This document shows positions 15,555 through 59,542 of a stretch of DNA of 59,542 nucleotides, one piece after another; the first letter of the stretch is position 1; every line of letters starts with the position of its first letter. Both the position numbers and the translations under genes were made by a program. The notes beneath the pieces are model-generated. The model made no database searches, was not told the DNA's origin, and saw only the letters and a list, made by a program, of their open reading frames with translations. The DNA is from a bacterium (GTDB taxonomy: Bacteria > UBA9089 > JASEIO01): contig JASEIO010000003.1 in assembly GCA_030017475.1 (NCBI GenBank), forward strand, positions 1 to 59,542, in the 5' to 3' direction.

Positions 15555-16597
15555 TTAGAAGAAAGACAAAGGAGATCAAGGTTCGAGATGTAGTAATTGG
15601 TGGAAGTGCACCTATATCTGTTCAATCAATGACAAAGACTGATACGAGAGACATAGATGCTACTATTTCGCAAATTAGGAGACTTGAGGATGTAGGTTGT
15701 GAGATTGTTAGGGTTTCAGTGAAAGATTCTGAAGCAGCCAATGCACTTCCAGAGATCAAGAGAAGGATAGGTATTCCATTGGTGGCTGATGTCCATTTTG
15801 ATTATAGATTGGCAATCGCCTCAATTGAAAAAGGGGTTGATAAGATCCGGATAAATCCAGGAAATATTAGGGATGAAGCTAAGATTAGAGAGATAGTTTT
15901 AAAGGCAAAAGAAAGGGGTATACCAATTAGGATTGGTGTAAATAGTGGATCAATAAACGAGAAAGCCACCCCTTCAGAAATGGTCAATCTTGCGCTAAAG
16001 TACGTAGGTATATTAGAGAAATTGCGCTTTTATGACATTATCATTTCTCTTAAGGCATCAGATGTCCCTACTACATTAGCCTCATATCAATTGATGGCAG
16101 GGCATGTTGATTATCCATTTCATATTGGTATCACTGAATCAGGTTTGCCTTTGAAAGGAGGTATTAAATCGGCTGTTGGGATAGGGATTTTGCTATTCCA
16201 AGGGATTGGGGATACGATACGTGTATCCTTAACTGGAGATCCTGTAGAAGAGGTTAAAGCAGGCTATGAAATTTTAAAGGCATTAAGCTTACGGACATAT
16301 GGCTATGAGATCATCTCCTGTCCAACCTGTGGTAGATGTGAGATAGATTTAGTAAGGATTACTGAGGAGGTGGAAGATAGATTGTCCAACTTCCAACTTC
16401 CAACTTCCCACTTCCCACTTAAGATAGCTATTATGGGGTGTGTGGTGAATGGTCCAGGAGAGGCACGCCATGCAGATATAGGTATTGCAGGAGGTAAAGG
16501 GGTAGGGATATTGTTTAAAAGAGGAAAGGTGGTAAAAAGGATTAAGGAAAAGGATTTGGTCGAGACTTTACTATATGAGGTAAGAAATTGGAGATAG
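15551..16597 (+). CDS. ispG: HMBPP synthase
   Basis: SVQSMT, RINPGN, RIGVNSGS, CPTCGR, MGCVVNGPGE. Confidence 0.97.
   Translation: MIRRKTKEIKVRDVVIGGSAPISVQSMTKTDTRDIDATISQIRRLEDVGCEIVRVSVKDSEAANALPEIKRRIGIPLVADVHFDYRLAIASIEKGVDKIRINPGNIRDEAKIREIVLKAKERGIPIRIGVNSGSINEKATPSEMVNLALKYVGILEKLRFYDIIISLKASDVPTTLASYQLMAGHVDYPFHIGITESGLPLKGGIKSAVGIGILLFQGIGDTIRVSLTGDPVEEVKAGYEILKALSLRTYGYEIISCPTCGRCEIDLVRITEEVEDRLSNFQLPTSHFPLKIAIMGCVVNGPGEARHADIGIAGGKGVGILFKRGKVVKRIKEKDLVETLLYEVRNWR
16385..16419 (+). repeat. Heptamer tandem repeat in ispG
   Basis: TCCAACT x3 + TCCCACT x2, encoding SNFQLPTSHFP. Confidence 0.9.
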
Positions 16598-27662: not shown

Positions 27663-29078
27663 GTGTTAGATGATGTAATAACTACTATAACTCAATATAA
27701 TATGTTAGAATTAGAGGACAAGGTAATAGTGGCTGTTTCAGGTGGACCTGATTCAGTGAGTTTATTGCATATCTTATGGTGTTTGAAAGATAAATGGAGG
27801 TTGAATCTACATATAGCACATCTAAATCACTCACTTCGTGGAGAAGAGGCAGAGAAGGACGCATGTTTTGTAAAAGGGTTAGCTAAAAGGTATGGATTTC
27901 CAATTACCTTGCGTGAAGTTGATGTCTTAAAATGGAGTCAAGAAAAGAAAGTTTCCCTTGAGGTTGGAGCAAGAAGGTTAAGATACGAATTCCTCGTTGG
28001 GGTGGCTGAAAGTGTAAATGCGAGGAAGATTGCTTTAGGACATAATGCAAATGATAATATAGAAACCATTTTAATGAGGTTAATTCGAGGGACAGGTATT
28101 TGTGGTTTAAAAGGGATACCTCCTGACCGTTCGCTTAATGATAATTTAAAGATTATTCGTCCTTTGATTAATATTACCTCTCTTCAGATCAAAGATTACA
28201 TTGCGCAGAATAATCTAGAATATCGAATTGATTCATCTAACCTTAAACCCATTTATTTACGAAATAAGATAAGATTAGAACTCTTGCCACTTATGTTAGA
28301 ATATAATCGCAAGTTTAAAGAGGCATTGTTAAAGACAGCCTCACTTTGGGAGAAGGATGATGAATACCTTAACGAAATTGCAAGAATTGAATTCTCCAAG
28401 GCTTTGTTAAAAAGTAACAAAAGGATAATCCTTGATTTAGGTAAAATTACATATCTTCCCCAGGCTATTTTATCGAGGATCTTAAGAGAAGGGATTAGAT
28501 TAGCTAAAGGCAATTTAGAAAGGGTTACCTATCGCCATATAGCCCAGATTATAAGATTAATAGATAGAGGTCCTTCTCAGGGAGAGGTATATTTACCTGA
28601 CAGAATTAAGATCCAAAGAGAGTACGAGCATATTATAATCTATAGAGAAGAGGAAAAAAGGGATAGGGACAAAAAGATAGGTTTTGAATACCCAATAAAT
28701 GTACCTGGTGAAACAAGGATAATTTTCTTAAATACGGAACTTCAGACTGAAATTTTAGAAAGAGATTCTTCATTCTTCATCCCTCATCCCTCTCTAAATA
28801 TAGCCCATTTTGATTATGACAAGGTTAAATTACCCTTAATTCTACGGAGTCGCGCACCAGGAGATAGATTCACCCCTTTAGGAATGAAGGGTAGGAAGAA
28901 AGTAAAGGACTTCTTTATTGATTTGAAAATAGGAAAGTTAGATCGAGAGAAAATCCCTTTATTATTGGATAAAGAAGGGATAATTTGGGTAGTTGGATAT
29001 AGGATTGATGATAGGGTAAGAATCTCAAGAGATACCAAAAGGATACTTAAGGTCTCCTATCATGTATCTTGCGAGTAA
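27663..29078 (+). CDS. tilS: tRNA(Ile)-lysidine synthetase
   Basis: AVSGGPDS, HLNHSLRG, ARRLRY, GHNAND, RNKIRL, C-terminal KKVKDFFID. Confidence 0.96.
   Translation: MLDDVITTITQYNMLELEDKVIVAVSGGPDSVSLLHILWCLKDKWRLNLHIAHLNHSLRGEEAEKDACFVKGLAKRYGFPITLREVDVLKWSQEKKVSLEVGARRLRYEFLVGVAESVNARKIALGHNANDNIETILMRLIRGTGICGLKGIPPDRSLNDNLKIIRPLINITSLQIKDYIAQNNLEYRIDSSNLKPIYLRNKIRLELLPLMLEYNRKFKEALLKTASLWEKDDEYLNEIARIEFSKALLKSNKRIILDLGKITYLPQAILSRILREGIRLAKGNLERVTYRHIAQIIRLIDRGPSQGEVYLPDRIKIQREYEHIIIYREEEKRDRDKKIGFEYPINVPGETRIIFLNTELQTEILERDSSFFIPHPSLNIAHFDYDKVKLPLILRSRAPGDRFTPLGMKGRKKVKDFFIDLKIGKLDREKIPLLLDKEGIIWVVGYRIDDRVRISRDTKRILKVSYHVSCE
28765..28792 (+). repeat. Heptamer tandem repeat in tilS
   Basis: ATTCTTC x2 + ATCCCTC x2, encoding DSSFFIPHPS. 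Confidence 0.75.
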
Positions 29079-45963: not shown

Positions 45964-46061
45964 CAAAAAGGATGGAGATGTGAGAGGATATGAACATGGC
46001 TCGAAAAATAGGTATTGTATCCACAATTAGAAGAAAAATTTTAAAAATTGAGGTGATAAAA

Positions 46062-47150
46062 ATGTTTAAGCAAAAAGCAATTAAAGGGTTAATTTGCCTT
46101 GTGGCAATAGGAGTGTTTGCAAGCACAGGTTGGGCTATGGGCAAGAAGCCTGCTGAGAGTGAGCAGTTGTTAGTGAGCAGTGAGCAGAAGGAGATTGAGT
46201 CAACAGGGGTTCAGCCAGAGGGTGAGAGTAAACCAGCTAAGGTTGAGGTGGCAGAGCAGAAAGGGACTCAAACCTCAGAGGCTCAAGCCATAGAGCCAAA
46301 GCCAGTTATGGAGTATAAGCTTCCTGAAGGTGAGGAGATTGTGGATGTTATCTTTGGTGAGGCAGAGATGACTGTAGAAGAAGCAATGGCTTTAGGGATA
46401 AAAGGCTTAGAGCAGAAGAAGGCAACCGAAACCGTGAAGGTGCAGTATCCAAAGGTAATAACGATCAAAGACATGAATATTAAAGGTGATGTATCTATAA
46501 AATCGATTAGATTCTTGAATGAAAAAGGAGAGATGAAGAGCGAATATCAAGTTAAAGGACAAAGAGAATGGACGGGTGTTATGGTTTCCAAGAATAAGAA
46601 GTACCTTAATGTCCATTCTATTATCAATTATGAAAAAGAAGAAGCAGAATCTATAATGTTGAATGACGAGGGAAAAGTGTTATGGAGTGTTAAGCATAAT
46701 CTCTTTGAAGTCTATCCATCACCAAATGGCAAGTATTTGGTTGGACTTCCTACTATTGAGTGGAGTGATGCCCCAATATATGTTTATAATGAAAAAGGAT
46801 TGGTTAGGGAAATAAAGAAGGATGATCTATCTTGTAGGTTAAGCTTTTCTAAAGATGGAAGTTATTTTGCTGTAACTTTAACTACAAGAATTGAAGGTGA
46901 AGATAGAGCAGATTTAATAGTATTTGATGGAGAAGGAAATGAACTTTGGAGAAAGAATGGTATAACAAGAGGAATTGCCGCAGATTATTGCCCAATAAAT
47001 ATTACAGATGATGACATAATCACGGTAATGACAGGTGGAGATGAATATAAGATATATCATTTTGATAAGAAAGGCAATTTGGTTAAAGAAGAACAAGGTA
47101 ATTTAGAATTACTTAGGCAATTCAACCCAGATTATTCAAGAGCAAGGTAA
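46062..47150 (+). CDS. Secreted protein A2: paralogous N-terminus + different beta-propeller-like region
   Basis: N-terminus nearly identical to A1; SPNGKY, FSKDGSY, DGEGNELW; ATG 46062 after GAGGTG. Confidence 0.8.
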   Translation: MFKQKAIKGLICLVAIGVFASTGWAMGKKPAESEQLLVSSEQKEIESTGVQPEGESKPAKVEVAEQKGTQTSEAQAIEPKPVMEYKLPEGEEIVDVIFGEAEMTVEEAMALGIKGLEQKKATETVKVQYPKVITIKDMNIKGDVSIKSIRFLNEKGEMKSEYQVKGQREWTGVMVSKNKKYLNVHSIINYEKEEAESIMLNDEGKVLWSVKHNLFEVYPSPNGKYLVGLPTIEWSDAPIYVYNEKGLVREIKKDDLSCRLSFSKDGSYFAVTLTTRIEGEDRADLIVFDGEGNELWRKNGITRGIAADYCPINITDDDIITVMTGGDEYKIYHFDKKGNLVKEEQGNLELLRQFNPDYSRAR

Positions 47151-47196
47151 TGTAGAGATGCTTTGGCAATCTAAAAAATAGTAGGAATAAGAAAAA

Positions 47197-50100
47197 ATGC
47201 TAAGAAAGACCTTTAATCTCTTCATTTTAAGTTCGTTGTTTATTCTATCTCCAATTATAGCATCAGGTTATCAATGGCCTGTTGATTCTTTCGATAAACA
47301 ACATCCAATCAATGCTACATTAGGAGAGTACAGATCTAAGTTTCATAACGGTGTAGATATAGGTAGGTTTCATAGAGGTGTAGATATAGGAGAACCTGAA
47401 AAAACCAATGTATATCCTGTTGTTAGTGGGACAGTAGCTAAGATAGTATATAGAGGAAAGAACTCTTATGTCACAGTTGAAGATGGAAATAGAAAGATTG
47501 ATTATGTCCATATAAATCCAAATCCATCAATACGAGTAAATCAGTCTGTAACAGCGGGTGAGACTGTTCTTGGTACAATAAATGATCTAAACCACCTCCA
47601 CTTTCAAGAAGATGAGGGGGCAGTAAACCCTCTTCGCCCTGGAGGACTTACTCCATTCACTGATAAGGGTGAACCAAAAGTTAAGAAAGTGGAAGTAGTG
47701 AAGGATAGTACTCCTGATGCTCCTGATGCTGGGAAACCATTTCCAACAGATAGTAATGGTATTCCTATTGTATCTGGTAATGTTGATATTAAAGTATGGG
47801 CCTATGATCCAAGGGTTAATGCAGATGGGACTCCTGGTGAAAGGGGTGGTATGGGGATATATAGAATTGGATATGAGGTCAGAAAAGAATCTGATGGTAC
47901 TCTTGTTGAAGGACCAACATATAGGATTCAATTCGATACCATCTCCTCTGATTATAAGGTGAAGTATGTTTATGATCCAAAATCAAGTTATATACCTGTT
48001 AATTTTATCTACTTGGCAACAAATTACCCTAATTCTAATGGCTACTGGAATACAGAAAGACTTGAAGACGGAAGGTATAAGGTTAAGAGTTTAGTGGAAG
48101 ATATTAAAGGCAGGAGTGCTGAGAAAGGGATCACAGTGATCATCGACCTCACCCCACCCAAGGTAAAGGAGAGCACCACTGGAAATAATGCTCAGGATGT
48201 TCCTTTAGATAGTACCATTGAGATTACCTTAGAAGACCCAAAGAAGAACGACTATTCCTCAGGGATTGATCCTAAGTCCCTAAAGCCAGAGGAATGTAAG
48301 ATTGATCCCAAAATCGATGGTACCTGGAAGATCAAGGGAGAAGGATTTATCTTTATTCCTAATGAACGCCTAAAAGAAGAGACCACCTACAAAGTCACCA
48401 TCCCCAAGGAGGCAGCTAAGGATAAGGCTGGTAATGAATTAGAGAGCCACATTTTCACATTCAAGAGTGGCTGGTTTGGGGCAAAGGCGTTAACGACATC
48501 TTATCAGAAAGTGTATCCTAGAGAAACTGTAACTCATGTTATTGCTATCAGCAACCATTTAGGAAAGAATGAGGATTTTGAGCTTGTTGTAAAAAATCCA
48601 TCAGGCATGGGGTGGTCCTGGGGCTTTGGTAGTCCTGGTGGAGGAGAACGGATAGAGGTTAATGCCCCATATGATCCATCGAATGATAAGTACAAAGATG
48701 ATGATGCTACAGTATGTTTTATGGCCAAGGCCCCTCGTGTACCATGTACGAGTGTCTTCACGGCTCAGATCTTTATTCAGATAAAGGATAAACCAGAGAC
48801 AGAAAGAGAAGTAGTATACCTTGGAGACATAACCCAGGGTGAACGCATTAATGACCATCCGGATGACAACTACGAGATCTCTGATCCACAGTATCCAACC
48901 AATATGTACATCTCCAGTAAGGCCGATGTTGCTATGTTGTTAAGGGGATACTCAGATGGCATGGGCCATCTACTCGGAAGATGGAAGATACCAGTTTCTC
49001 TCATCTTAGATGATCTTACCCCTATCTTTAGAGAGAAAAGAACCCTTTCAGATTACCCCGTACTGATCATACCTACCCTGGGCCTATCAGGCATCTCAAA
49101 CTCACCTACCACCAAGGCAAAACTTGAAGAATACGTCAAGAATGGAGGAACGATAATCTGTTTCACCCAGCAGCATGGGTATGACTTCGAGGCCCTGCCC
49201 AGGGGAGATGAACTCAAAGGGTATGGCTGGAGTGAAGATCAGTCATGCTGGCGTGGTTCGGTATCCATCTCTACCCCTCATCCAGTCTTTGCTGGTCAGG
49301 ATACCCAAATCCTTGACATAGTCACTGATGGCTACTTTGACAGATGGCCAGATGATTCGACTATTCTCTTGAGACGAACAAAGAATGATATGCCGGCTAT
49401 GCTGATGTATCCTTATGGAAAGGGAATAGTTATAGTTTCTGGCTTCTATGAGGACTGGGCCTATGGAAATTCCCAATCAACCAAGGATGGAAGAAATCTG
49501 GTAAGAGATCTTGTTACCTTTGCCAAAGATCCAGATAAGCATATCCCAGAGTATAGGGGTGAAGAAAAGATCAATGAGCAATTAACAATTAGAAATGATC
49601 AATTGACAATTGCAGAAAGAATAAAGGTTAGGGTGTATGATCCGGACAAAAACGAGCTTGTATCTTACAACCAAGAACTTACAACCCCATTAGAGGCCGG
49701 AGAGTCAATCACCATTCCATTTGACTATACTGCCCCTCAAAGCCTTGGTATCTATGAGGTAACCTATATCCTTCTTGATAGAGACGATGAGGAGATTCAG
49801 GAGGAAGAGGTAGGACTGAGGTTTGGGGTAAGTCTTGGCCTTGTGGGAGTGGCCAAGAAGGACCTTTCAATTAACATTACTTCAGATGGAGATGAAGTCA
49901 GAGTCAAAGGGACACCAGCCACCTTTACTATCACTGTGAGGAATAATAGTGATGAAATAAGGAAGGTTACCCTCAACTGGCATAGTCATGCAGGAGGGGG
50001 TTCGATTGGAACATATACTGTTTTACCTAAATCGAGCATCTCTATTCCTTACACCACGGACCGTATCTACTTTTACTGGCAGGGTCCAAGGTGGGAGTTC

Positions 50101-53100
50101 TACATATATTGTCCTGAGGCCGGCACTAGGTGGATTGGTTTAGCGGGAATATGTGTAGAACCTTTGGTTTATGTCTCTCTTTTAACTGATAAATATGAGT
50201 ATCAAAGGGGAGAGGATTTGGAATTGGATGTTTTGGTTAAAAATCTAATGTCAAATCCACAAAACGTCAATCTGAAGATCAATATAGTTGATCTGAATTG
50301 GGAAGATTGGAAGGAGGAGAGAACCCTTGAAGTGGATCTTGGCTCAGAAGAATCTGTAAGAGAGAAGCTTATATTCCAGGTTCCAGAATACCTCTATGGG
50401 GGGATATATAAGGTTAAGGCAGAGGCCTATGTAGATCAAGTACTTCTATATGAGGCTATGACCACCTTCAAGGTTACACCCTTATTGCTAAGCCTTGAGT
50501 CGAAAATCAAAGAAGCTTATGCTTGGGGTAATGATGCAAACCTCGATTTTATTATTAAGAATGATGGAGATATAGACAGGGAGGTTACCCTGAGTGGTTT
50601 CTTCTCTTGTTATTATCAACCATTTGAGAAAACTCTATTTATCCCGGCCGGTGGCGAGGTATCTTACACCCATATTATAGAAACAGTTTGGTGTGGATCA
50701 ACACTCACTGCCTCTCTTTATACTGAGAAGGGAGTAAAGATTGAACAAATAGATAAGTGGTTTGATGTTTATAAAGTGGTTCCAAGGAGTACTCTCTCCA
50801 CAAACAAAAAGAGGTATCTTCGTGGAGAGGAGGTAAAGATTACCTTGGACATTCAAGATAGTCATAAGATTGACTATCCGGCCCGGGTGAAGGTTGTTAT
50901 GGGTAATGGGTTATGGGTTATAGGTGATGAGGAAGTAGAGATCATCGATGGGAAGGCAACCAAGGAATTTACATACATCATTCCAAAGGATGCTGAGAGG
51001 GGATACTATAATATAAAGGCTTATGTCTACTATCAGGAGGAAATGATAGGTTATGGTACTACTTCCTTTTATGTTCTAAAGCCTAAACTTGCGGTTAAGC
51101 CGAGTCTACCAGATGTCTTCACAGTTAAGGGTTCACAGTTGACGGTTGCCAGTGGAGAAAGGGTAAATCCTGTGGATTTTGAAATAGAGAATGTAGGTCC
51201 TATTGATGTGATAGATGGGAAATTAGAAGTAAGTTTAGAGTGTAGAGTTGAGAGTTTAGAGGAAGGAGAAGATGGGGCAGGGAGCAGGGGGCAGGAGGAA
51301 GAGGGAGAAGAGGTGTGGAGGGATGAGAGGGAGTTTGGGAAACTGAAGGCAGGATATGGAGAGGAGCAAGGAGAGAAGACTACCCTTGAGTTTGATATTC
51401 CTATTGAAGAGGTCAGGTTTGGGACTTATGTGCTTAAATATGTCTTGAAATATGAGACTGAAGAGATAAAGGGGGAAGAAGAGATAGTTTCAAAGGTTAC
51501 CATCAAGGAGTTTAAGCTTGACAAAACCTCATACAAGGTTAGAGATGAAATGAAAATAGAGCTTGAGGTGATTAACGCCGGAGGATTCGAAGAGAGATTT
51601 AAGGTAGGGCTAACATCCGCAAGTCTTAAGCCAATAGCCCTTGAGGACCAGGAACTTATCTTACTGCCAGGTGAGAGCAAGATACTGAATTATGCGACCA
51701 CCATAATAGAGGATATAGAACCTGGGGTGCATGAAGTAGAAGTAGTTATAAGTCATCAGGGGAGTGGAAGTCTTGGAGATGGCTCATCCAATCAAGGGAG
51801 TGGAAGTTTGGGAGAAGATGAGATAATAAAGAAGTTTAGTTTTGTGGTATCGGCTTCACGATTAGAGGCCTATCTGGATAAGAAGTATTACTCTTGTGGA
51901 AAGGGTGGGAGTATTAAGATTACCAACGCAGGTGGGGTGGATACGAACTACTCCTACAATCTCAGGTTGGTAGATTGGAATGGACTTGTTTTCTTTGAGG
52001 AAGCTGGAAGTGGTAGCATAAAAGCAGGTGATGGGTTATTGGTGATGGATGGTGGGAAAATAGGGTTTATGATACCGGAGCAGTTGGTGAGTGGTGGGTA
52101 CAATCTTATGTTGGAGCTTAAGGATGAAAAGAAGAATGAAGGGATAAAGAGATTGTTTTACATCAATGTAAATGGTTTACAGGCCAGGGTTACTCCAAAG
52201 ACAGAGGAGAAGATCTACTTCTATGGGGACCAGGTCAATGCCTCTACGCTGATTGAGAAATTGGGCCTTCCCATAAATGGGGCAAGCCTCAAGATAAGGG
52301 CCTATGCCTCTGGGGGTGAGTGGACCCACTATCCAGACATCAGGGATGTCAATGCCATTGTGGCAGATGGGGACTATGTCTTGTTTGGAACAGCTGGTTA
52401 TGGGGTAAGAAGATATAACAAGAAGAATGATACATGGGATCTCTTTGATACTTCAAACTCAGGGCTCTTGGATGATAATGTTCTCTTAATTGGGGTCGAT
52501 ACCCACTATCTCTGGTTTGTCACATCAAGAGGGGTCTCAAGGTGTGATAAGACTATGAATAATTGGGAGAACTTCACCAAGGAAGAGATAGGACTAAGCT
52601 TCTTCGACTCTATCCAAAGCATAGCCATAGATAATGACTACGTATGGTTTGGTGGTGACTATCCTGGACTGATCAGATATAGTAAGGGTAATGGAGAATG
52701 GATGCACTGGAGCCTGGATGAGATTGGAGATAAGATAGGGATAGAGGGCCTGATTATAAATAGCATGGTCGTTGATGATGGAATCCTCTATATGGGTACT
52801 AGTGAATGGTGTGGCTCTCAGGACTATCTTATCAAGTTAGAGACAGAAACCGAGACCTTGAGTGTTATAAAAGAGATGAGTGTCCTTGCCCTCTCTCAGG
52901 ACTCTGACTGCCTCTGGATTGGATGGAATAATATCTTAACCGGATACAATAAGCAGACCGGTGAATTCAAGGACTATGAGATCCCCTATTCCCCAGAATA
53001 TTATTGGGATGGAGTAAGTGATGGGACAATCTCTGTAGCCTCTCTTTGTGTGGATGAATATAAGGTCTACTTAGGCTCAGATAAGGGAGGGGTCTATATC

Positions 53101-56100
53101 TTTGATAAAGAGAGAAAAACCTGGGAGGAGCTTGTCTCTGAGATTGGTAGTCCACAAAGTGTCTTGGCCATAGCAGCAGATGAAGACTATGTCTGGTTTG
53201 CCGGAAGAGATACGTTGACACGCTTTGATCGGGGTTATCGCTTCCAGGGGGAAAAGGTCAGCTATGGTGAGTGCATATCTATGATCGATGCCGGAGACCG
53301 GCTCATAATCCTTCCCTATGATACTTCAAGACTCATCTTCTATGACAAGGCTACCGGTTATACAGAAGAGATTAACATCCCATTAGGCACTCATTCCTCT
53401 GAGTCATCGATGGCCCTTGATGGGGACTGCGTCTGGATAGTCGGGAAGCATAACGATGTTATCTTACGGTATGATATGACAAATGATCACTTTGATGAGT
53501 GGATGCTCAATTGGTTGGTTGATGATGTCTTTGCCCTGGATGGTGACTATGTCTGGTTCAGACTTGAAGGAGGTAAAGGCATCCAGGCCATAAGGTATGA
53601 CAAGATAAATGATGACCTAAGGCTCTACAAGGACGTTCCTGACTACTTAGACTTCAAAAAGAGATACTACTATGATAAGGAGCTTGGAGATTGGGTAGAC
53701 TCGCACCTTGAGATAAACAAGGTCTATCCCGAGCTAAGTGATCTATACAAGTATATAGAAAAGTTTATAGATGAATTCGAGTATCTTAAGAACGTGGCCG
53801 TTTGTGGGGATTATGTCTGGTTTAGTGGAGGTAGTGGTCTAATCAGATATGATAAGGCCGCTGATTCATGGAGATACTTTGATCTTGACATTGAGACTGG
53901 CAAGATATGGGCAAATGATGGAGTCATCTATATCGATTGTAATGGCCTCTACAGGTATGATCCAACAACTACAGAACTCTCTAAACTCTTAAATCTAAGT
54001 AGTGAAGTAACCTTCCTCCTCTTTGATGATAAAGACCTCTGGCTTGGAACGAATGGAGAGGGATTGTGGCACTATGAAGGCGGTTCATGGACTCAGTTTA
54101 CCGAGGAGAATACTGATGGTGGACTGTTGAGCAATCGTCTTTTTGCCGGCTGCCTCGATGGAAGCTACATCTGGTTGGACTGTGGTACCATAACACGATA
54201 CGATAAGGCCGCTGGTGAGTGGAAGAGTTATAGGGAAGACTGGTTTGATAGTATCACTTCCATCTTAGCCGATCAAGTATTCCTATGGATTGGTGGAAGA
54301 GGAGGATTATTCAAGATGAAGAAGGTAGGAGAGATACTCTTTGATGAGACTATCCAGGTTAATGTGGGGAGTGATGTTACCACAAACCATCTTTTAGGGA
54401 TCTTAGATACTTTAGGTAAGGTCTACATAGATGCGGTGCTTACATCATCCAAGGGTCAATTAATTGACCATGGTCAGAATACATTCTACATCATCAATAC
54501 CTCAACCTCTCTTTCATTTGAGACAGATAAGCCCATCTATAAACCGTACGAGACAGTCACCATAACAGGTAAGATCCATAATGCCGCCCAGATACCCACC
54601 AATCCCTTGAAACTCAAGTTGAGAAAGAAGGATAAAGAGGTCATCTATCAGGAGGAGAATATCGTTCTCCAGCCATATGAAACAAGGCAGTTTACCACCA
54701 CAACCACGGCAGATAAGTCATTTGTCTTAGAGGGATCGATCGGTGATCTTAAGCTAACCGACTTTGTGGAGGTAGCAAAACCAGAGCTTGAAGTGACGAT
54801 AGATGCACAAGAGGTGGTTTCAAGAGATGAGTTTACTCCCTTGATCATTCTTAAGAATACGGGGAAGGTGGAATTGCAAATTGAAAATTGCATATTGAAG
54901 ATTGCAAAGGCTGAGGATGGAGAAGAATTAACTGTCTACTGTCTATTGTCTACTGTATACTGCCTAAGGCCTGGTGAAACAAAGATATTTGAGCAACCAC
55001 TTCAAATCCATGAGGATGTTATCCTGAGTGTAGAGGTGAGTGGGGATGTAAGAAAGACCGTAGCCAAACAGATAGGGTTTGGGGAGAAGGTAACCATTGG
55101 GGTTACACCCGAGGAGATCTATCCTATCGGGATTATAGAGGTGCCATTTGTCATCACTAACGGTGGGAGCCTGGATTCAAAGCTTGAGGTTGTCTTTGTT
55201 CTGGAGAAGACTGAAAAGGAAAATGGAGCAGGGAGCAGGGAACAGGAGGCAGATGGCAGAGGAGAGAGTGTATCGGGCAGGAGTCAGAAGGTAGAAAGGG
55301 TGATTGGTGGGAAGATGGTTTATGGTCCATGGTTGATAGTCCATGGCCAGAAGGAAGGATATAACAGAGAAAGGAGAATGATCAGGGAGCAGTTGCAAGG
55401 ATTGTGTTGGATAATACCACAGATAAGGATCAGTAAGCAGCAGGAAGAGGGAAGCAGGCAGAGGGAAAAGGAGAAGGAAGCGCAGAGTGTTACTACCAAC
55501 CAGTTAACATCTACCAGTTACCAGTTAAGCAGTTACAAAGACAGCGTGGAGTTGGTAAAGACCTTCTATATACCGGCTGGTGAGAAGATAGCGGGGGATC
55601 TTGTCTTTAATCTGAATGAGGGAGACTATAAGCTCTTGTTTACCTCAGAACTTTCCTCTGGCGCAACATACTTCAAGGTTGCAAAAGACGGTATAGTAGA
55701 AATAAATAAGTTAGAAGTGGGAAGTGGGAAGTTAGAGGCTAATAAACTGCCTACAGATGTTATGGTTAAGAATCTTGGAGGAAATAACTTTGTTGGGGTC
55801 CTGAGGCTTGATGCGGGATTTTATGAAGAAGAAAGCCAGATAGAATTAGAGAGTGCCCAGGAAGAGACTTACAGATTCGGAATTCCCCTTGAGGCAAGTT
55901 CCGGGGAGTACACAGCCAGGGCAGAGGTTCTACATGACGGCTGGGTGATAGCCGAGAAGGAACAGAGGTTTAAACTGGAGCCTTGGTTTGAAATAACCGG
56001 AATCTGGGGGAAGTCTGGTGAGGCAGGTGGTAGTGGGATTAGTTTTGATGTAGGAGAGGAAGGGAGATTTAAATTTGCTGTAAAGAATACGGGAACGGCA

Positions 56101-58281
56101 GAGGGGAAGGTCATTCTCCACCTGAAGTTCCTTGACCTTGTGGATGAAGAGAAGGAGGTCTGGCTTGGAGTGGGCCAGACAGAAGAGGTGGAGTTCTCTT
56201 TTGAGGTGCCGGATGATTTGGAGGATAAGGACCACATAGCAGTACTCAGTAGTCAGTGGTCAGTAGTCAGTGGGATAAAAGAGATAGAAGAAGAGATACA
56301 GGTGCATATAAATGGAATAAAGATTGGGGTGGAGGCAGAGCTGGATAAGCCATTCTATCAAGAGGGGGATACGGCCGTCCTGACCCTCAAGGTCACAAAT
56401 CTCACCTCCTTATCCCTGGCGATGTACACCAAGATCAATTTCAATGATTATCAGGAGCGTCAGGACTTTGAGCTTGGACCCATGGATGGTTCACAATCCA
56501 CAGTAGAGCTACAATTCAACATCCCGATCCAGTTCACAGGCCAGAAGATCGGGTATGGGGTCTACATGTCCTCTGGAAGGAGTATCTATCTTAACTCGAT
56601 GTATGTCAGAAAGAAAGGGGAGATAATAACACTCTGGACAGATAAGGAAGTCTATGGGGCCGGGGAAGAGGTAATCATCAATTATCAATTATCAATGAGC
56701 AATGAAGAATTGGCCACTGGCAATTATCAATTGTCAATCGATGGAGAGGAAGTAGTTGAGCCGTTTACCATACCTTTAACCGAGAATGAGGGGACAACCA
56801 GTTTCATCTTGCCTAAGGAGCTAAACAGCGGAACCTATATCATAAACTATGAGCTAACAGAAGGTTCTCAACAGCTTGAAAAGGGAGAGTACCGATTTGA
56901 TGTTATTGGTTATGAGGTGATAATCATAAAGGCGACTCTGGATAAACAGGTCTACAACTCTGGGGATGAACTGAATCTTGATCTTACCATCAAATCGAAT
57001 AGTGACCTGGATATCCTGGTCAGGGCCTGGATCTACAACCCGGAGGGTGGGTATGAGGACTTCTTCAACAAGGGAGCTATTCTTTCCTGTGGCAGGACAA
57101 GACACAGAATCAACGGCGAGATTACCGATACCATGCCAGGTGTTCATTTGCTGGTCTATGCGATCTATTCAGGTAATAATGAATGGTTGCTCCTTGCCGC
57201 AGGGAGCGAGAGCTTTGATCTGAACACCCCGGATACTATCAACACCGATTTTTCTGCCACCCCAGACTCGGGCGAGGTGGATGATAAATTCCCAAGGGCG
57301 ACCATCGTCCGACCCAATCCAGGAGATAGAGTTTCAGGAGATGCAGTCCTTATAAAAGTGGTAAGTGAAGATAAAGATATTGTGAACATAAACTTTCAGT
57401 ATAGATTGAGTAATCAAGGTGCATGGACAGATATTGTTAGCAGCATAGATACAGGATCGATATACTCTGTAACCTGGGATACTACTTGGCTGACAGAAGG
57501 TAGCTATGATTTAAGGGCAGTCGCAGAAGATGCTATGGGCAATGTGGATACAGATCCTCCATATATTACTGTTATTGTCGATCATCCAAATGCTGATTAT
57601 TCTGAATATGGAGTGAAAATGGCCAAAGATAATGTAATTGAAAATGGTGATGGGATCAGGGTCAAGATACCGGCTGGGGTTCTAACCAAAGATACTATCA
57701 TAAAAATCTCAAAACCAGATCCGGCTGATATTCCACCAAACAAGGATAAACCCACCGGGTTGTTTCTTGAGATTACCCTTGAGAGTGGCCAGGAACACCT
57801 AAATGGGTACATCTTCATTTCAATGCCATATCTGGACAACGATAATAATGGCCTGGTCGATGGCACAGACATCTTAGAGGAGAATCTAAAGGTTAATATC
57901 TACAGAGACACAGGCTGGAAAAGGCTGCCAACAACTATAGATGCTATAGATAATATCGCTACCGGCAAAACAGACCACCTCGGTAGCTTCGGATTATTTG
58001 GATCTCTCACCTCTGATCTTGATAATGTGCTGGTCTTTCCCAATCCATTCAGGCCTGGAAAGGGTGAAACCATCAGGTTCTTGAATCTGACCGAGAATGT
58101 GATCATAAGAATCTATAATGTGGCTGGCGAACTCATCAGGTACAAAGAGGATATAACAGACCATTGGAAATGGGATGGAAGAAACGACCATGGCCAACCA
58201 GTGGCAACCGGCGGCTATATCTATATCATCACCGATGATAATGGAAGAAAGAAGATAGGAAAGATTGCGGTTGTTTGGTAA
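47197..58281 (+). CDS. Giant secreted protein (3694 aa): M23 peptidase, Ig-like domains, GATase-like domain, beta-propellers, FlgD/T9SS-type C-terminal domain
   Basis: Signal peptide; HxxxD (twice), YVH and HLH; D..PP.V...KDKAGN Ig; YVWF/DxLW blades; VFPNPF...IYNVAGELI...WDGRN...G.Y.Y CTD. Confidence 0.85.
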   Translation: MLRKTFNLFILSSLFILSPIIASGYQWPVDSFDKQHPINATLGEYRSKFHNGVDIGRFHRGVDIGEPEKTNVYPVVSGTVAKIVYRGKNSYVTVEDGNRKIDYVHINPNPSIRVNQSVTAGETVLGTINDLNHLHFQEDEGAVNPLRPGGLTPFTDKGEPKVKKVEVVKDSTPDAPDAGKPFPTDSNGIPIVSGNVDIKVWAYDPRVNADGTPGERGGMGIYRIGYEVRKESDGTLVEGPTYRIQFDTISSDYKVKYVYDPKSSYIPVNFIYLATNYPNSNGYWNTERLEDGRYKVKSLVEDIKGRSAEKGITVIIDLTPPKVKESTTGNNAQDVPLDSTIEITLEDPKKNDYSSGIDPKSLKPEECKIDPKIDGTWKIKGEGFIFIPNERLKEETTYKVTIPKEAAKDKAGNELESHIFTFKSGWFGAKALTTSYQKVYPRETVTHVIAISNHLGKNEDFELVVKNPSGMGWSWGFGSPGGGERIEVNAPYDPSNDKYKDDDATVCFMAKAPRVPCTSVFTAQIFIQIKDKPETEREVVYLGDITQGERINDHPDDNYEISDPQYPTNMYISSKADVAMLLRGYSDGMGHLLGRWKIPVSLILDDLTPIFREKRTLSDYPVLIIPTLGLSGISNSPTTKAKLEEYVKNGGTIICFTQQHGYDFEALPRGDELKGYGWSEDQSCWRGSVSISTPHPVFAGQDTQILDIVTDGYFDRWPDDSTILLRRTKNDMPAMLMYPYGKGIVIVSGFYEDWAYGNSQSTKDGRNLVRDLVTFAKDPDKHIPEYRGEEKINEQLTIRNDQLTIAERIKVRVYDPDKNELVSYNQELTTPLEAGESITIPFDYTAPQSLGIYEVTYILLDRDDEEIQEEEVGLRFGVSLGLVGVAKKDLSINITSDGDEVRVKGTPATFTITVRNNSDEIRKVTLNWHSHAGGGSIGTYTVLPKSSISIPYTTDRIYFYWQGPRWEFYIYCPEAGTRWIGLAGICVEPLVYVSLLTDKYEYQRGEDLELDVLVKNLMSNPQNVNLKINIVDLNWEDWKEERTLEVDLGSEESVREKLIFQVPEYLYGGIYKVKAEAYVDQVLLYEAMTTFKVTPLLLSLESKIKEAYAWGNDANLDFIIKNDGDIDREVTLSGFFSCYYQPFEKTLFIPAGGEVSYTHIIETVWCGSTLTASLYTEKGVKIEQIDKWFDVYKVVPRSTLSTNKKRYLRGEEVKITLDIQDSHKIDYPARVKVVMGNGLWVIGDEEVEIIDGKATKEFTYIIPKDAERGYYNIKAYVYYQEEMIGYGTTSFYVLKPKLAVKPSLPDVFTVKGSQLTVASGERVNPVDFEIENVGPIDVIDGKLEVSLECRVESLEEGEDGAGSRGQEEEGEEVWRDEREFGKLKAGYGEEQGEKTTLEFDIPIEEVRFGTYVLKYVLKYETEEIKGEEEIVSKVTIKEFKLDKTSYKVRDEMKIELEVINAGGFEERFKVGLTSASLKPIALEDQELILLPGESKILNYATTIIEDIEPGVHEVEVVISHQGSGSLGDGSSNQGSGSLGEDEIIKKFSFVVSASRLEAYLDKKYYSCGKGGSIKITNAGGVDTNYSYNLRLVDWNGLVFFEEAGSGSIKAGDGLLVMDGGKIGFMIPEQLVSGGYNLMLELKDEKKNEGIKRLFYINVNGLQARVTPKTEEKIYFYGDQVNASTLIEKLGLPINGASLKIRAYASGGEWTHYPDIRDVNAIVADGDYVLFGTAGYGVRRYNKKNDTWDLFDTSNSGLLDDNVLLIGVDTHYLWFVTSRGVSRCDKTMNNWENFTKEEIGLSFFDSIQSIAIDNDYVWFGGDYPGLIRYSKGNGEWMHWSLDEIGDKIGIEGLIINSMVVDDGILYMGTSEWCGSQDYLIKLETETETLSVIKEMSVLALSQDSDCLWIGWNNILTGYNKQTGEFKDYEIPYSPEYYWDGVSDGTISVASLCVDEYKVYLGSDKGGVYIFDKERKTWEELVSEIGSPQSVLAIAADEDYVWFAGRDTLTRFDRGYRFQGEKVSYGECISMIDAGDRLIILPYDTSRLIFYDKATGYTEEINIPLGTHSSESSMALDGDCVWIVGKHNDVILRYDMTNDHFDEWMLNWLVDDVFALDGDYVWFRLEGGKGIQAIRYDKINDDLRLYKDVPDYLDFKKRYYYDKELGDWVDSHLEINKVYPELSDLYKYIEKFIDEFEYLKNVAVCGDYVWFSGGSGLIRYDKAADSWRYFDLDIETGKIWANDGVIYIDCNGLYRYDPTTTELSKLLNLSSEVTFLLFDDKDLWLGTNGEGLWHYEGGSWTQFTEENTDGGLLSNRLFAGCLDGSYIWLDCGTITRYDKAAGEWKSYREDWFDSITSILADQVFLWIGGRGGLFKMKKVGEILFDETIQVNVGSDVTTNHLLGILDTLGKVYIDAVLTSSKGQLIDHGQNTFYIINTSTSLSFETDKPIYKPYETVTITGKIHNAAQIPTNPLKLKLRKKDKEVIYQEENIVLQPYETRQFTTTTTADKSFVLEGSIGDLKLTDFVEVAKPELEVTIDAQEVVSRDEFTPLIILKNTGKVELQIENCILKIAKAEDGEELTVYCLLSTVYCLRPGETKIFEQPLQIHEDVILSVEVSGDVRKTVAKQIGFGEKVTIGVTPEEIYPIGIIEVPFVITNGGSLDSKLEVVFVLEKTEKENGAGSREQEADGRGESVSGRSQKVERVIGGKMVYGPWLIVHGQKEGYNRERRMIREQLQGLCWIIPQIRISKQQEEGSRQREKEKEAQSVTTNQLTSTSYQLSSYKDSVELVKTFYIPAGEKIAGDLVFNLNEGDYKLLFTSELSSGATYFKVAKDGIVEINKLEVGSGKLEANKLPTDVMVKNLGGNNFVGVLRLDAGFYEEESQIELESAQEETYRFGIPLEASSGEYTARAEVLHDGWVIAEKEQRFKLEPWFEITGIWGKSGEAGGSGISFDVGEEGRFKFAVKNTGTAEGKVILHLKFLDLVDEEKEVWLGVGQTEEVEFSFEVPDDLEDKDHIAVLSSQWSVVSGIKEIEEEIQVHINGIKIGVEAELDKPFYQEGDTAVLTLKVTNLTSLSLAMYTKINFNDYQERQDFELGPMDGSQSTVELQFNIPIQFTGQKIGYGVYMSSGRSIYLNSMYVRKKGEIITLWTDKEVYGAGEEVIINYQLSMSNEELATGNYQLSIDGEEVVEPFTIPLTENEGTTSFILPKELNSGTYIINYELTEGSQQLEKGEYRFDVIGYEVIIIKATLDKQVYNSGDELNLDLTIKSNSDLDILVRAWIYNPEGGYEDFFNKGAILSCGRTRHRINGEITDTMPGVHLLVYAIYSGNNEWLLLAAGSESFDLNTPDTINTDFSATPDSGEVDDKFPRATIVRPNPGDRVSGDAVLIKVVSEDKDIVNINFQYRLSNQGAWTDIVSSIDTGSIYSVTWDTTWLTEGSYDLRAVAEDAMGNVDTDPPYITVIVDHPNADYSEYGVKMAKDNVIENGDGIRVKIPAGVLTKDTIIKISKPDPADIPPNKDKPTGLFLEITLESGQEHLNGYIFISMPYLDNDNNGLVDGTDILEENLKVNIYRDTGWKRLPTTIDAIDNIATGKTDHLGSFGLFGSLTSDLDNVLVFPNPFRPGKGETIRFLNLTENVIIRIYNVAGELIRYKEDITDHWKWDGRNDHGQPVATGGYIYIITDDNGRKKIGKIAVVW
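49571..56740 (+). repeat. At least 14 separate in-frame degenerate heptamer tracts within the giant gene
   Basis: Tracts start at 49571, 50896, 51119, 51232, 51274, 52028, 54872, 54931, 55225, 55315, 55499, 55708, 56240, 56678. Confidence 0.85.
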
Positions 58282-59228: not shown

Positions 59229-59542
59229 CAAGGCACTGAGCATGAAGTGCGGAGCAGGTATCGCTTCCAGGCAAAGCTCCCAACCACCCATCACCCAAAA
59301 TCCTCACCTAACGCCTCTTTCTCTTCTTAATCACCATCTCTGCATTTGGTTATGCCAATTTTTCATTTCAGCCTGAGGTTTAAACCCAGCTTGCCCTTCA
59401 AAGATTCTCTACTGTCTGATCTCATCAATGCTTGATTTTTTTGAGAAGCACATCTGCTGCTTGTTCGCGGCAAAAAATGCAGGTTTTTAAAAAAATTTAA
59501 AAAATCATCTGGAGAGATTAAGACTACTGTATAGGAGAGATA

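What the first reader, a model, noticed from the sequence alone, without database searches (positions are those of the whole stretch)
49571..56740. At least 14 in-frame heptamer arrays with varied units written into one gene
Seen (start, unit, copies): 49571 NCAATTR x6; 50896 GTTATGG x5; 51119 TCACAGT x5; 51232 AGTTTAG x4; 51274 GGRGCAG x3; 52028 GTGATGG x4; 54872 AATTGMA x5; 54931 ACTGTCT x5; 55225 GGAGCAG x5; 55315 ATGGTYY x5; 55499 ACCAGTT ~x5; 55708 AAGTKRG x4; 56240 CAGTRGT x5; 56678 TCAATTA x9 (all degenerate). They yield odd 7-aa-period peptides (TVYCLLSTVYCL, SSQWSVVSG, NYQLSMSNEELATGNYQLSI) without breaking an 11-kb frame. They cluster in the Ig stalk; I saw none in the M23, propeller or CTD parts. 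A period of 7 cannot come from codon structure. Inference: a process fixes repeat length but not sequence and diversifies a surface protein.
Basis: partly seen in the sequence, partly recalled or inferred. Interest (0 to 1): 0.85.

Follow-up and report, generated by a model that had tools for sequence, protein, structure and literature searches.

The report
Seven-base repeat arrays written into genes
Short runs of 7-base repeats are real and unusually dense in this giant surface-protein gene, but they belong to a genome-wide habit of this bacterial lineage that also marks essential genes and keeps rewriting the repeat unit at the same sites.

Summary
Lag-7 identity in the gene is 0.2875, against 0.2539±0.0038 in codon shuffles. 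The signal sits in the two Ig-like stalk parts (z 6.1 and 8.1), not in the propeller-like part (z 0.6) or the C-terminal part (z 1.2).

The process is not specific to this gene. The 1.64-Mb genome holds 47 period-7 arrays, against 0–8 for every other period except 14. Forty of the 47 lie in long open frames, including IspG, TilS, CarA, GlyS, PheT, QueA and Mfd. Three of the five other families sampled show a clear period-7 excess.

At orthologous sites in the giant gene, IspG and CarA, different lineages carry arrays of similar length. The units are lineage-specific and homogenised within each array.

My reading is that a lineage-wide 7-nt-register slippage or copying process acts everywhere and selection filters its products for reading frame. 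This secreted stalk protein tolerates or favours the arrays: it holds 9 of the 47, where 0.32 are expected. An adaptive role in diversification is not shown. I rate it a new variant of a known kind (heptanucleotide simple repeats).

The parts
47197..58281 (+). Giant secreted protein gene (3694 aa). It has an N-terminal M23 peptidase and Big_5, MG2/NPCBM_assoc-type Ig-like stalk modules, a propeller-like middle part, Big_7/Big_13, and a CHU_C/FlgD_ig type IX secretion tail.
   Evidence: ORF; translation; Pfam (CHU_C 29.2 bits on the C-terminal piece; Reg_prop only E 0.0046).
49563..49612 (+). Array of CAATTRA-type units (also read as period 14). It encodes INEQLTIRNDQLTI.
   Evidence: TRF; scan. 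Orthologs G004 and P0002 carry TCAATTA/CAATTTA arrays at the same site. G022 carries ACAAATY. G024 and G007 have non-periodic sequence of equal length there.
50892..50934 (+). Array of GTTATGG units, about 5 copies, encoding VMGNGLWVIG.
   Evidence: TRF 50896-50929, 81% matches. P0002 has non-periodic sequence of similar length here.
51118..51147 (+). About two copies of the 14-nt unit TTCACAGTTAACGG. It lies inside a 12-aa insertion relative to all homologs aligned.
   Evidence: TRF; alignments.
51229..51264 (+). Array of AGTTTAG units, about 4 copies.
   Evidence: TRF.
51268..51332 (+). GGAGCAG-type array followed by a purine-rich period-9 tract. It encodes GAGSRGQEEEGEE and is an insertion relative to homologs.
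   Evidence: TRF; alignments. It is 84% identical over 38 nt to 55219-55256.
52027..52055 (+). Weak array of GTGATGG/GTTATTG units.
   Evidence: Found only by the looser scan. Not reported by TRF at score 30 or above.
54863..54908 (+). Array of AATTGCA/AATTGAA units (period 14 fits better). It encodes ELQIENCILKIA, which is a predicted beta-strand.
   Evidence: TRF. In the AF2 model it forms strand 49-60 with pLDDT about 94. G004 has GGTTGCG units, P0002 has ACAGTCC units and P0003 has an ELRIADC-type peptide at this site.
54923..54972 (+). Array of ACTGTCT units, about 5 copies, encoding TVYCLLSTVYCL. It is exactly 7 aa (21 nt) longer than homologs that lack an array. It forms the second strand of a beta-hairpin.
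   Evidence: TRF; the 7-column gap in alignment A1; model strands 66-73 and 77-79. G004 and P0002 carry TTACCAR units here. Identity between orthologs is 0.42, while lag-7 identity within the arrays is 0.83 and 0.76.
55212..55536 (+). Hypervariable linker of about 100 aa. It is built from arrays of GGAGCAG (55225), ATGGTTGATAGTCC (55315), AGCAGGAAGAGGGA (55439) and ACCAGTT (55499), set around a conserved core of the form 'L..WC....IRI'.
   Evidence: TRF. Most phylum homologs skip query residues of about 177-279. In the alignment, each lineage fills this linker with different heptamer-derived peptides. No dispersed copies were found in the genome.
55701..55743 (+). Array of GAAGTGG/GAAGTTA units.
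   Evidence: TRF 55714-55732, 100% matches. G004 and P0002 carry GTCCACA-type units here.
56236..56276 (+). Array of CAGTAGT/CAGTGGT units encoding LSSQWSVVSG.
   Evidence: TRF. P0002 has four copies of a CAGTCCA unit at the same site, which is the same CAGT core with the other three bases changed in every unit.
56666..56740 (+). Degenerate array of TCAATTA units, about 10 copies, encoding INYQLSMSNEELATGNYQLSI.
   Evidence: TRF. P0002 has the same unit here, with DNA identity 0.81 against 0.548 gene-wide.
16380..16424 (+). Outside the finding: (TCCAACT)3(TCCCACT)2 in frame inside IspG/GcpE (gene 15551-16597).
   Evidence: TRF, 96% matches. Pfam GcpE E 6e-142 across the whole profile. It is a 5-aa insertion relative to solved IspG 3NOY. 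Orthologous arrays with other units are shown.
28763..28794 (+). Outside the finding: ATTCTTC/TCATCCC arrays in the linker of TilS (gene 27663-29078).
   Evidence: TRF. The Pfam domains ATP_bind_3 (20-205) and TilS_C (393-460) flank the array.
46154..46187 (+). Outside the finding: weak TGAGCAG array in the upstream gene 45990-47150. It lies inside an 81-nt segment that differs completely from the paralog at 44369-44449, although the flanks are about 90-100% identical.
   Evidence: TRF; repeats; alignment.

Best explanation
The arrays are the local and exceptionally dense product of a lineage-wide process that makes and remakes short tandem arrays in a 7-nt register, often with a 14-nt higher order.

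What is shown: the excess is specific to period 7 and 14. It is genome-wide, it is found in several families of the phylum, and it occurs in both coding and non-coding DNA. In genes the arrays are read through all three phases and give peptides with a 7-aa period. They persist at orthologous sites while the unit changes in concert within each lineage.

What is inferred about mechanism: out-of-register copying by one or two units during replication or repair, that is, reiterated slippage or unit-to-unit conversion. Selection then removes every outcome whose net length is not a multiple of 3. What remains are arrays of constant or 21-nt-stepped length with homogenised units.

What is inferred about this gene: the Ig-like stalk and its linker tolerate replacement of beta-strands and loops, or benefit from it. 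Arrays therefore accumulate there and make the exposed stalk lineage-specific. The M23, propeller-like and secretion-tail parts do not tolerate them.
For: Period specificity. In the genome, period 7 gives 47 arrays, period 14 gives 22, and all other periods from 4 to 15 give 0-8. In the gene, strict arrays occur only at periods 7 and 14, and none appeared in 500 codon-order shuffles.

Not a protein-level effect. Synonymous shuffling lowers lag-7 identity (z 5.8). Seven of the 47 arrays in G000 and 49 of the 58 in the G022 sample lie outside ORFs of at least 150 aa.

Genome-wide spread. Forty of the 47 arrays lie in ORFs of at least 150 aa, which cover 88% of the genome. I scanned 20 of the 28 host ORFs outside the window and 19 matched Pfam families. 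At least 14 arrays are flanked on both sides by matched domains: CarA, GlyS, a TsaD-family protein, a GltD-like protein (two arrays), KduI, DegT, QueA, Lnt, a histidine kinase, PheT, a MiaB-like protein, DUF7948 and Mfd. IspG and TilS add two more.

Phylum-wide spread. Period-7 arrays per 100 kb are 18.8 in G001 (26 in 138 kb), 23.8 in G022 (58 in 243 kb) and 5.0 in G007 (6 in 120 kb). Both out-of-phylum samples show nothing real: 0 in 200 kb, and 4 in 200 kb that are all T-rich low complexity.

Concerted unit change at orthologous sites. The IspG site reads (TCCAACT)3(TCCCACT)2 in G000, (TCACACT)3(TCCCATT)2 in G023, a perfect (TCCAATT)5 in G021 and CTCACTA units in G004. Canonical IspG lacks the insert: 86 of the 120 best homologs have the short 24-aa spacing. 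The CarA linker shows the same pattern in families f1, f6, f7 and f8.

Comparison of the giant gene with P0002. P0002 has 14 strict period-7 arrays of its own and 0-1 at other periods apart from 14. At three sites the units differ: between-ortholog identity is 0.33-0.64 against 0.548 gene-wide, while lag-7 identity within the arrays is 0.52-0.92.

Structure and length. Site 54931 is exactly +7 aa. Both arrays of the folded module are confident beta-strands.

Hotspot. The gene holds 9 of the 47 arrays where 0.32 are expected, P 7e-11.
Against: No population or read data exist, so ongoing slippage has not been observed.

Simple slippage by 21 nt can only homogenise a unit with the third unit along, not with its neighbour. 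The mechanism must therefore involve single-unit reiteration or conversion without net length change. That is conjecture.

The period-7 excess is not clear in every relative sampled. G004 gave 4 arrays at period 7 and 5 at period 9. G024 gave 9 at period 7 and 12 at period 9. G003 gave 1 at period 7 and 4 at period 8.

Three orthologous arrays that share the same unit are more conserved in DNA (0.73-0.81) than the gene as a whole (0.548). Neutral turnover does not predict this. It could mean constraint on the DNA or RNA itself.

The 28-fold concentration in one gene, with none in the next-largest ORFs (2542, 2035 and 1811 aa), is not explained by tolerance alone.

Some N-terminal arrays (FlhB, the PyrC-like gene and others) may lie upstream of the true start codon.

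The coding calls rest on stop-to-stop ORFs, not on gene predictions.
Confidence: 0.65

Rival explanations
1. Adaptive and possibly targeted diversification. The heptamer process is recruited to vary the exposed stalk of this type IX-secreted adhesin or peptidase, for example against phage or grazers or for ligand range, and selection maintains the arrays there.
For: The gene is extremely enriched: 9 of 47 arrays, and no other of the 63 large ORFs has more than one. Homologs in other families are also array-rich: 6 in 3.5 kb of G004, 5 in 3.6 kb of G022 and 14 in P0002. Units differ between orthologs at the same structural positions. The arrays avoid the catalytic, propeller-like and secretion parts.
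Against: The same arrays occur in cytoplasmic housekeeping enzymes. No diversity-generating machinery was found nearby: there is no long template/variable repeat pair within 15.5 kb, and the only reverse-transcriptase fragments lie on another contig. The arrays are short and degenerate, so they should mutate slowly. No within-population variation could be examined.
Confidence: 0.2
2. Phase-variable contingency switches. Gain or loss of one 7-nt unit turns the gene off and on, as in the heptanucleotide repeat of neuO.
For: In neuO a coding heptanucleotide repeat gives full-length protein only when the copy number is divisible by 3 (PMC13001214, passages read). The host here is a surface protein.
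Against: The arrays here have 2-5 copies at 67-94% identity, far from the long perfect tracts that slip often; neuO has 3-53 copies. There are at least 14 separate arrays in one frame. Arrays also occur in essential single-copy genes, where an off state would be lethal.
Confidence: 0.04
3. A by-product at the protein level. Selection favours 7-residue peptide repeats, such as hairpin strands, and the DNA periodicity merely follows.
For: The array peptides form predicted beta-strands. Some keep the hydrophobic pattern of the strand they replace.
Against: A 7-aa repeat predicts a 21-nt period, not a 7-nt one. Shuffling synonymous codons lowers the lag-7 signal (z 5.8). A perfect (TCCAATT)5 in IspG of G021 cannot be explained by peptide selection. 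The same kind of array occurs in non-coding DNA.
Confidence: 0.03
4. Inserted cassettes or templated synthesis. The arrays arrive ready-made through a small mobile element, gene conversion from other arrays, or a polymerase that copies short templates.
For: Within a genome some unit classes recur more often than chance allows. G000 has 9 identical-class pairs against 1.7 expected. The G022 set (66 arrays) has 123 against 7.4, and TTACCAG/TTACCAA units account for 20 of those arrays. Two sites in this gene share 84% identity over 38 nt. Paralogous upstream genes differ by an equal-length 81-nt patch between near-identical flanks.
Against: No shared flanks, terminal repeats or dispersed copies of the linker insert were found. 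G000 has 38 unit classes among its 47 arrays. Unit sharing between G000 and G022 is at chance level: 2 classes against 2.0 expected. Only fragmentary reverse transcriptase is present in the genome.
Confidence: 0.08

Closest known systems
[quoted passage not shown] I know this paper only as summarised in PMC4679880 and PMC4692102; it is not held.
   Same: Seven is the favoured unit length among longer simple repeats. The distribution across lineages is sporadic. Polymerase slippage with a footprint of about 7 nt is the proposed cause (passages read).
   Different: According to those summaries, repeats inside genes were mostly units whose length is a multiple of three. Here 40 of 47 heptamer arrays lie in ORFs, several in essential genes. 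They persist at orthologous sites with concerted changes of unit.
[quoted passage not shown]
   Same: Both are short heptamer arrays of 2-6 copies mixed with related 7-mers. A minority lie inside ORFs in the stop-free orientation and encode LSVISYQ-type peptides. One example is LSVINYQLS, made with the variant TCAATTA, in a surface loop. This window has TCAATTA arrays that encode INYQLS.
   Different: In Beggiatoaceae one unit dominates and most sets are intergenic, just upstream of start codons (all but 25 of 169). Here there are 38 unit classes among 47 arrays, 85% lie in ORFs, and at least 14 arrays sit in one gene. Supplemental Table 1 of that paper, which lists the ORF-internal sets, could not be read because supplements are closed.
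G-rich heptamer repeats GGGAATC of Xanthomonas and GGGGA(T/C)T of Nostoc (PMC4692102, passages read)
   Same: Both are lineage-specific intergenic heptamer arrays whose length and sequence vary between close relatives. A GGGGATT array occurs in relative G022 (locus L068).
   Different: Those arrays are G-quadruplex-forming, intergenic and of a single unit type. The arrays here have varied composition and lie in coding sequence.
Coding heptanucleotide repeat of neuO (AAGACTC), a phase-variation switch (PMC13001214, passages read)
   Same: A 7-nt repeat is translated in all three phases, and the gene is in frame only when the added length is divisible by 3.
   Different: neuO has one long perfect tract (3-53 copies) at the 5' end that switches often. 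Here there are many short degenerate arrays spread through a gene, and others in essential genes.
Diversity-generating retroelements acting on Ig-like or C-type lectin surface proteins (from my own knowledge, not from a call)
   Same: They produce localised sequence variation in a large surface protein.
   Different: No template/variable repeat pair lies near the gene. No intact reverse transcriptase was found in the genome. The signature here is tandem 7-nt periodicity, not adenine-specific substitution.

Membership tests
Heptanucleotide simple sequence repeats (LSSR/STRR type) | Head-to-tail tandem copies of a 7-nt unit | tested here: met
   TRF gave 11 period-7 and 7 period-14 rows in the gene. 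The lag-7 excess has z 8.8.
Heptanucleotide simple sequence repeats (LSSR/STRR type) | Genome-wide excess of period 7 over neighbouring periods | tested here: met
   G000 has 47 arrays at period 7 and 0-8 at periods 4-6, 8-13 and 15. The excess is also clear in the G022, G001 and G007 samples. It is not clear in the G004, G024 and G003 samples.
Heptanucleotide simple sequence repeats (LSSR/STRR type) | Mainly intergenic location, as described for cyanobacteria, Xanthomonas and Beggiatoaceae | tested here: not met
   In G000 40 of 47 arrays lie in ORFs of at least 150 aa. The feature is met in relative G022, where 49 of 58 arrays lie outside such ORFs.
Phase-variable contingency locus | A long, near-perfect repeat tract able to slip at high frequency | tested here: not met
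   The arrays have 2-5 copies at 67-94% matches, with only short perfect stretches.
Phase-variable contingency locus | Copy-number polymorphism between cells or strains that switches the frame | not testable with these tools
   No sequencing run could be listed. The closest homolog of the gene is only 41-52% identical.
Diversity-generating retroelement target | A nearby reverse transcriptase and a template repeat matching a variable region | tested here: not met
   No long repeat pair of that kind lies in 44000-59542. RVT_1 matches only two fragments on contig C82.
Type IX secretion substrate | A C-terminal sorting domain and type IX components nearby | tested here: met
   CHU_C scores 29.2 bits (cut-off 27) on the C-terminal piece. 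The downstream gene 58275-59228 matches PorV at 27.5 bits (cut-off 27).
Small mobile repeat element (MITE-like cassette) | Dispersed copies with shared ends or target duplications | tested here: not met
   blastn of 55200-55560 and 51230-51345 against the genome found no other copy longer than 17 nt, apart from the two sites matching each other.

The most novel reading that the evidence does not exclude
This phylum has a dedicated or unusually active mechanism that writes DNA in 7-nt steps. The mechanism continually overwrites short stretches of genes without changing their length. It acts as a generator of new coding sequence: beta-strands, linkers and perhaps signal peptides. Selection has concentrated it in a secreted stalk protein, so the cell surface diverges much faster than the rest of the proteome.
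Probability: 0.15. Interest if true: 0.85.

Novelty: new variant of a known kind. Interest (0 to 1): 0.6.

Why it matters
An excess of heptanucleotide repeats in bacteria has been noted since 2007 and remains unexplained.

This lineage offers what the intergenic cases lack. Arrays sit inside conserved genes, where orthologous sites can be aligned across families. That shows the unit being replaced in concert while length and reading frame are held. It turns a vague 'slippage' idea into testable predictions: length steps of three units, and unit conversion without any change in length.

It also shows a non-triplet repeat acting as raw material for protein sequence in essential enzymes and in a surface protein.

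There is a practical point as well. Peptides with a 7-aa period in proteins from metagenome-assembled genomes can be recognised as products of this DNA process and not as functional motifs.

Tried and rejected
Population variation. The look-up of sequencing runs on 54800-56800 listed no run.

Closer relatives. The best homolog of the stalk region is 52% identical. The best IspG homolog is 67% identical. Recent array dynamics therefore cannot be seen.

Naming the organism. The search for related loci on genome contigs returned only three weak Nitrosopumilus hits and left out the window's own genome.

Mismatch-repair loss as the cause. MutS_I and MutL_C were not found in G000 (98.5% complete), nor in families f4, f5 and f7. 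In f3 one of four genomes gave a weak MutS_I match and none gave MutL_C. The two richest genomes sampled, G022 and G001, have both genes, so I rejected this as the cause of the excess.

A shared repertoire of units across the phylum. G000 and G022 share 2 unit classes, and chance predicts 2.0. A looser criterion of one mismatch gave only a two-fold excess within G000 and was uninformative between genomes.

The linker insert as a mobile element. No dispersed copies were found.

Alignment caveat. MAFFT first placed the TTACCAG array of G022 at site 54931. The module alignment shows that it sits one loop further on, so G022 is not counted for that site.

Literature. Four searches found no paper on in-frame heptamer arrays in essential genes or on their concerted evolution. 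One search was swamped by unrelated 'STRR' hits. The 2007 PNAS paper is not held. Supplements are closed.

Full report
THE OBJECT. Window 47197..58281 on the + strand is a single open frame of 3694 aa. Pfam finds an N-terminal M23 peptidase and Big_5. It finds MG2, NPCBM_assoc and A2M_BRD-type Ig-like modules in two stalk regions, then Big_7/Big_13. At the C-terminus it finds a CHU_C/FlgD_ig tail that passes its cut-off when the C-terminal piece is scanned alone (29.2 bits). The middle 766 aa give only a sub-threshold Reg_prop hit (E 0.0046), so the label 'propeller' is plausible but not established. The next gene, 58275-59228, matches PorV at 27.5 bits against a cut-off of 27, which fits a type IX secretion substrate. 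The gene has 43% G+C, against roughly 35-39% in most of the window.

Lag-7 identity is 0.2875. Codon-order shuffles give 0.2539±0.0038 and synonymous shuffles that keep the protein give 0.2695±0.0031, with 500 shuffles of each kind. With a strict rule of at least 18 of 21 matches, arrays occur only at period 7 (4 arrays) and period 14 (2 arrays) among periods 4-21. Codon-order shuffles never produced one.

By region, the z-scores are 6.1 and 8.1 in the two stalk parts, 0.6 in the propeller-like part, 1.2 in the C-terminal part and 2.3 in the N-terminal part.

IT IS NOT A PROPERTY OF THIS GENE ALONE. The window's genome is 1.64 Mb in 111 contigs and 98.5% complete. With the same detector (at least 17 of 21 matches) it holds 47 arrays at period 7 and 22 at period 14. 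Every other period from 4 to 15 gives 0-8.

Forty of the 47 arrays lie in stop-to-stop frames of at least 150 aa, and such frames cover 88% of the genome. Arrays are therefore not depleted from coding DNA here.

I scanned 20 of the 28 host ORFs outside the window, and 19 matched Pfam families. At least 14 arrays are flanked on both sides by matched domains:
- the CarA interdomain linker
- the GlyS DALR domain
- a TsaD-family protein
- a GltD-like protein, at a domain junction (two arrays)
- KduI
- a DegT aminotransferase
- QueA
- Lnt
- the ATPase domain of a histidine kinase
- the PheT B5 domain
- a MiaB-like protein
- a DUF7948 protein
- Mfd

In the window itself, (TCCAACT)3(TCCCACT)2 lies inside IspG and another array lies in the TilS linker. 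Several arrays sit at N-termini and encode hydrophobic LLSTVYC-type peptides. Some of these may lie upstream of the true start codon.

RELATIVES. All relatives held are from the same phylum but from other families. Sampled DNA gave the following period-7 counts:
- G022: 58 arrays in 243 kb
- G001: 26 in 138 kb
- G007: 6 in 120 kb
- G024: 9 in 124 kb, but 12 at period 9
- G004: 4 in 199 kb, but 5 at period 9
- G003: 1 in 80 kb, no excess
- Two out-of-phylum genomes: 0 in 200 kb, and 4 in 200 kb that are all T-rich low complexity

In the G022 sample only 9 of the 58 arrays lie in long ORFs, although such ORFs cover 81% of the sample. That genome resembles the intergenic pattern known from cyanobacteria and Beggiatoaceae. 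The compact G000 keeps mainly the coding arrays.

MutS_I and MutL_C were not found in G000, nor in families f4, f5 and f7. In f3 one of four genomes gave a weak MutS_I match and none gave MutL_C. Both domains are present in the array-rich G022 and G001 and in all 16 out-of-phylum genomes. Loss of mismatch repair is therefore not the cause.

ORTHOLOGOUS SITES: THE KEY RESULT. The closest homolog, P0002, is 4422 aa, collinear and 41% identical. Its DNA is locus L149. It carries 14 strict period-7 arrays of its own and 0-1 at other periods apart from 14. Many of its arrays sit at the same alignment positions as those of this gene.

Gene-wide DNA identity is 0.548, and 0.41 at third codon positions.

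At 54931, 55708 and 56240 the two genes have different units: ACTGTCT against TCACCAA/TTACCAG, GAAGTGG against GTCCACA, and CAGT+AGT against CAGT+CCA. Between-ortholog identity at these sites is 0.42, 0.33 and 0.64. Lag-7 identity within the arrays at these three sites is 0.52-0.92.

At 49571, 55499 and 56673 the unit is the same, and identity is 0.73-0.81, which is above the gene average.

G004 behaves likewise: it has GGTTGCG at the 54872 site and TTACCAR at the 54931 site. More distant homologs (G024, G020, G007) have ordinary non-periodic sequence at these sites. That sequence is of equal length at 49571, 3 aa shorter at 54872 and exactly 7 aa shorter at 54931.

The linker of about 100 aa at 55212-55536 surrounds a conserved core of the form 'L..WC....IRI'. 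Each lineage fills it with different heptamer-derived low-complexity peptides, from none to about 100 aa.

THE SAME PATTERN IN ESSENTIAL GENES. In IspG, 86 of the 120 best database homologs have a 24-aa spacing between the CxxCxR motif and the MGC motif. Twenty-seven have 27-35 aa (16 of them 29 aa), mostly with S/H/F/P/L peptides of 7-aa period. Seven carry an unrelated 38-aa form.

The DNA at that site reads as follows:
- G000: (TCCAACT)3(TCCCACT)2
- G023: (TCACACT)3(TCCCATT)2
- G021: a perfect (TCCAATT)5
- G004: CTCACTA units
- G019: C/T-rich units
- G020: decayed

Relative to the solved Aquifex enzyme 3NOY, this is a net insertion of 5 aa. The same base change is present in all three units, or in both units, of a sub-array, and the length is held. 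That is concerted evolution in a 7-nt register.

The CarA linker shows the same thing in families f1, f6, f7 and f8, for example NHESRTT-NHE, QNSKFKI-QNSKF, NPKFKIQ-NPKF and RNSKFEI-RNSKF. Families f3 and f4 have a shorter non-periodic linker.

STRUCTURE. An AlphaFold2 model of residues 2512-2672 was built from a 7-sequence alignment and has mean pLDDT 78. It puts the 54872 array in strand 49-60 (pLDDT about 94) and the 54931 array in strands 66-73 and 77-79 (pLDDT about 87). Together they form a long beta-hairpin of an Ig-like sandwich. Foldseek finds only generic Ig/Fn3-like sandwiches, with TM 0.38-0.47 for the top ten hits.

The arrays therefore do replace strands and are not confined to loops. 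The alignment is shallow, so the model is indicative only.

WHY THIS GENE? It holds 9 of the 47 arrays where 0.32 are expected (P 7e-11). Of the 63 ORFs of at least 800 aa, three others have one array each and the rest have none. Its homologs elsewhere are also array-rich. Tolerance of a modular extracellular stalk is the economical reading. A selective advantage of a fast-changing surface is not excluded, and I give it about 0.2.

MECHANISM (INFERRED). The period specificity, the 14-nt higher order and the presence of arrays in non-coding DNA all point to out-of-register copying by one or two units.

Slippage by 21 nt alone cannot homogenise neighbouring units. It only relates a unit to the third unit along. 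So either single-unit slips are reiterated within one event, with selection keeping net changes of three units, or units are converted without any change of length. The 3+2 structure of the IspG array fits the first option.

Within a genome some unit classes recur beyond chance: 9 identical-class pairs against 1.7 expected in G000, and 123 against 7.4 in G022. Sharing between G000 and G022 is at chance level. This suggests lineage-specific amplification or preference.

No template/variable repeat pair, intact reverse transcriptase or dispersed cassette was found.

COMPARISON WITH WHAT IS KNOWN. An excess of heptanucleotide repeats in prokaryotes, explained by polymerase slippage, is on record (Mrazek et al. 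2007, seen only as cited in PMC4679880 and PMC4692102). TAACTGA arrays of Beggiatoaceae and cyanobacteria occasionally lie inside ORFs in the stop-free orientation. One such array includes a TCAATTA variant and encodes LSVINYQLS in a surface loop (PMC4679880). neuO carries a translated heptanucleotide tract that is in frame when the copy number is divisible by three (PMC13001214).

Against this background four things are new:
- the density and variety of units in one gene
- the lack of depletion from coding DNA, including essential enzymes
- the persistence of arrays at orthologous sites across families with concerted replacement of units
- the occurrence in an unnamed, mostly uncultured phylum

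My four literature searches found no description of these points. Supplements and subscription journals were not searchable.

VERDICT. I class the finding as a new variant of a known kind and give it an interest of 0.6.

Noticed in passing
window 44181-45665 and 45990-47150 (segments 44277-44675 and 46062-46460): Two adjacent paralogous genes share about 90-100% identical 5' parts. An 81-nt segment of equal length (44369-44449 and 46154-46234) is unrelated between them. The second copy carries a weak TGAGCAG array there. It looks like a patch overwritten without any change of length, or like mosaic gene conversion.
   Followed up: partly
whole genome G000 (searched through): No MutS_I or MutL_C domain was found in this 98.5%-complete genome, nor in families f4, f5 and f7; f3 gave only one weak MutS_I match. 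Both are present in the larger-genome families f2, f6 and f8 and in all 16 out-of-phylum genomes searched. Mismatch repair appears to have been lost in part of the phylum.
   Followed up: partly
window 24827-25149: Four tandem tRNA genes: Arg-TCT, His-GTG, Arg-TCG and Arg-CCG. TRF reports them as an 82-nt repeat.
   Followed up: yes
G000 contig C82, about 3436-3925 (loci L202, L203): The only reverse-transcriptase matches in the genome are two adjacent fragments in short open frames of 101 and 87 aa. This is probably a degraded retroelement near a contig end.
   Followed up: no
loci L066, L190 and L192 (relatives G022 and G001): Long heptamer arrays often come as inverted pairs, for example TGGTAAT units followed by TTACCAG units, or ATTTCGG units followed by AATCCGA units. 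As RNA or single-stranded DNA these could form long hairpins in intergenic DNA.
   Followed up: no
window 33469-36948: A 1159-aa protein with an nSTAND3 NTPase domain and many TPR repeats. TRF reports its TPR region as a 102-nt repeat (36124-36377).
   Followed up: no
window 58275-58281: The PorV-like downstream gene overlaps the stop of the giant gene by 7 nt, if its TTG start is real. That would suggest translational coupling or co-transcription.
   Followed up: no
G000 contigs C16 22279, C27 2330, C34 67411, C59 5276, C100 15005: Arrays of ACTGTCT-type units encode hydrophobic LLSTVYC-like peptides at the N-termini of several ORFs, where signal peptides or membrane anchors would lie. The true start codons were not determined.
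   Followed up: no
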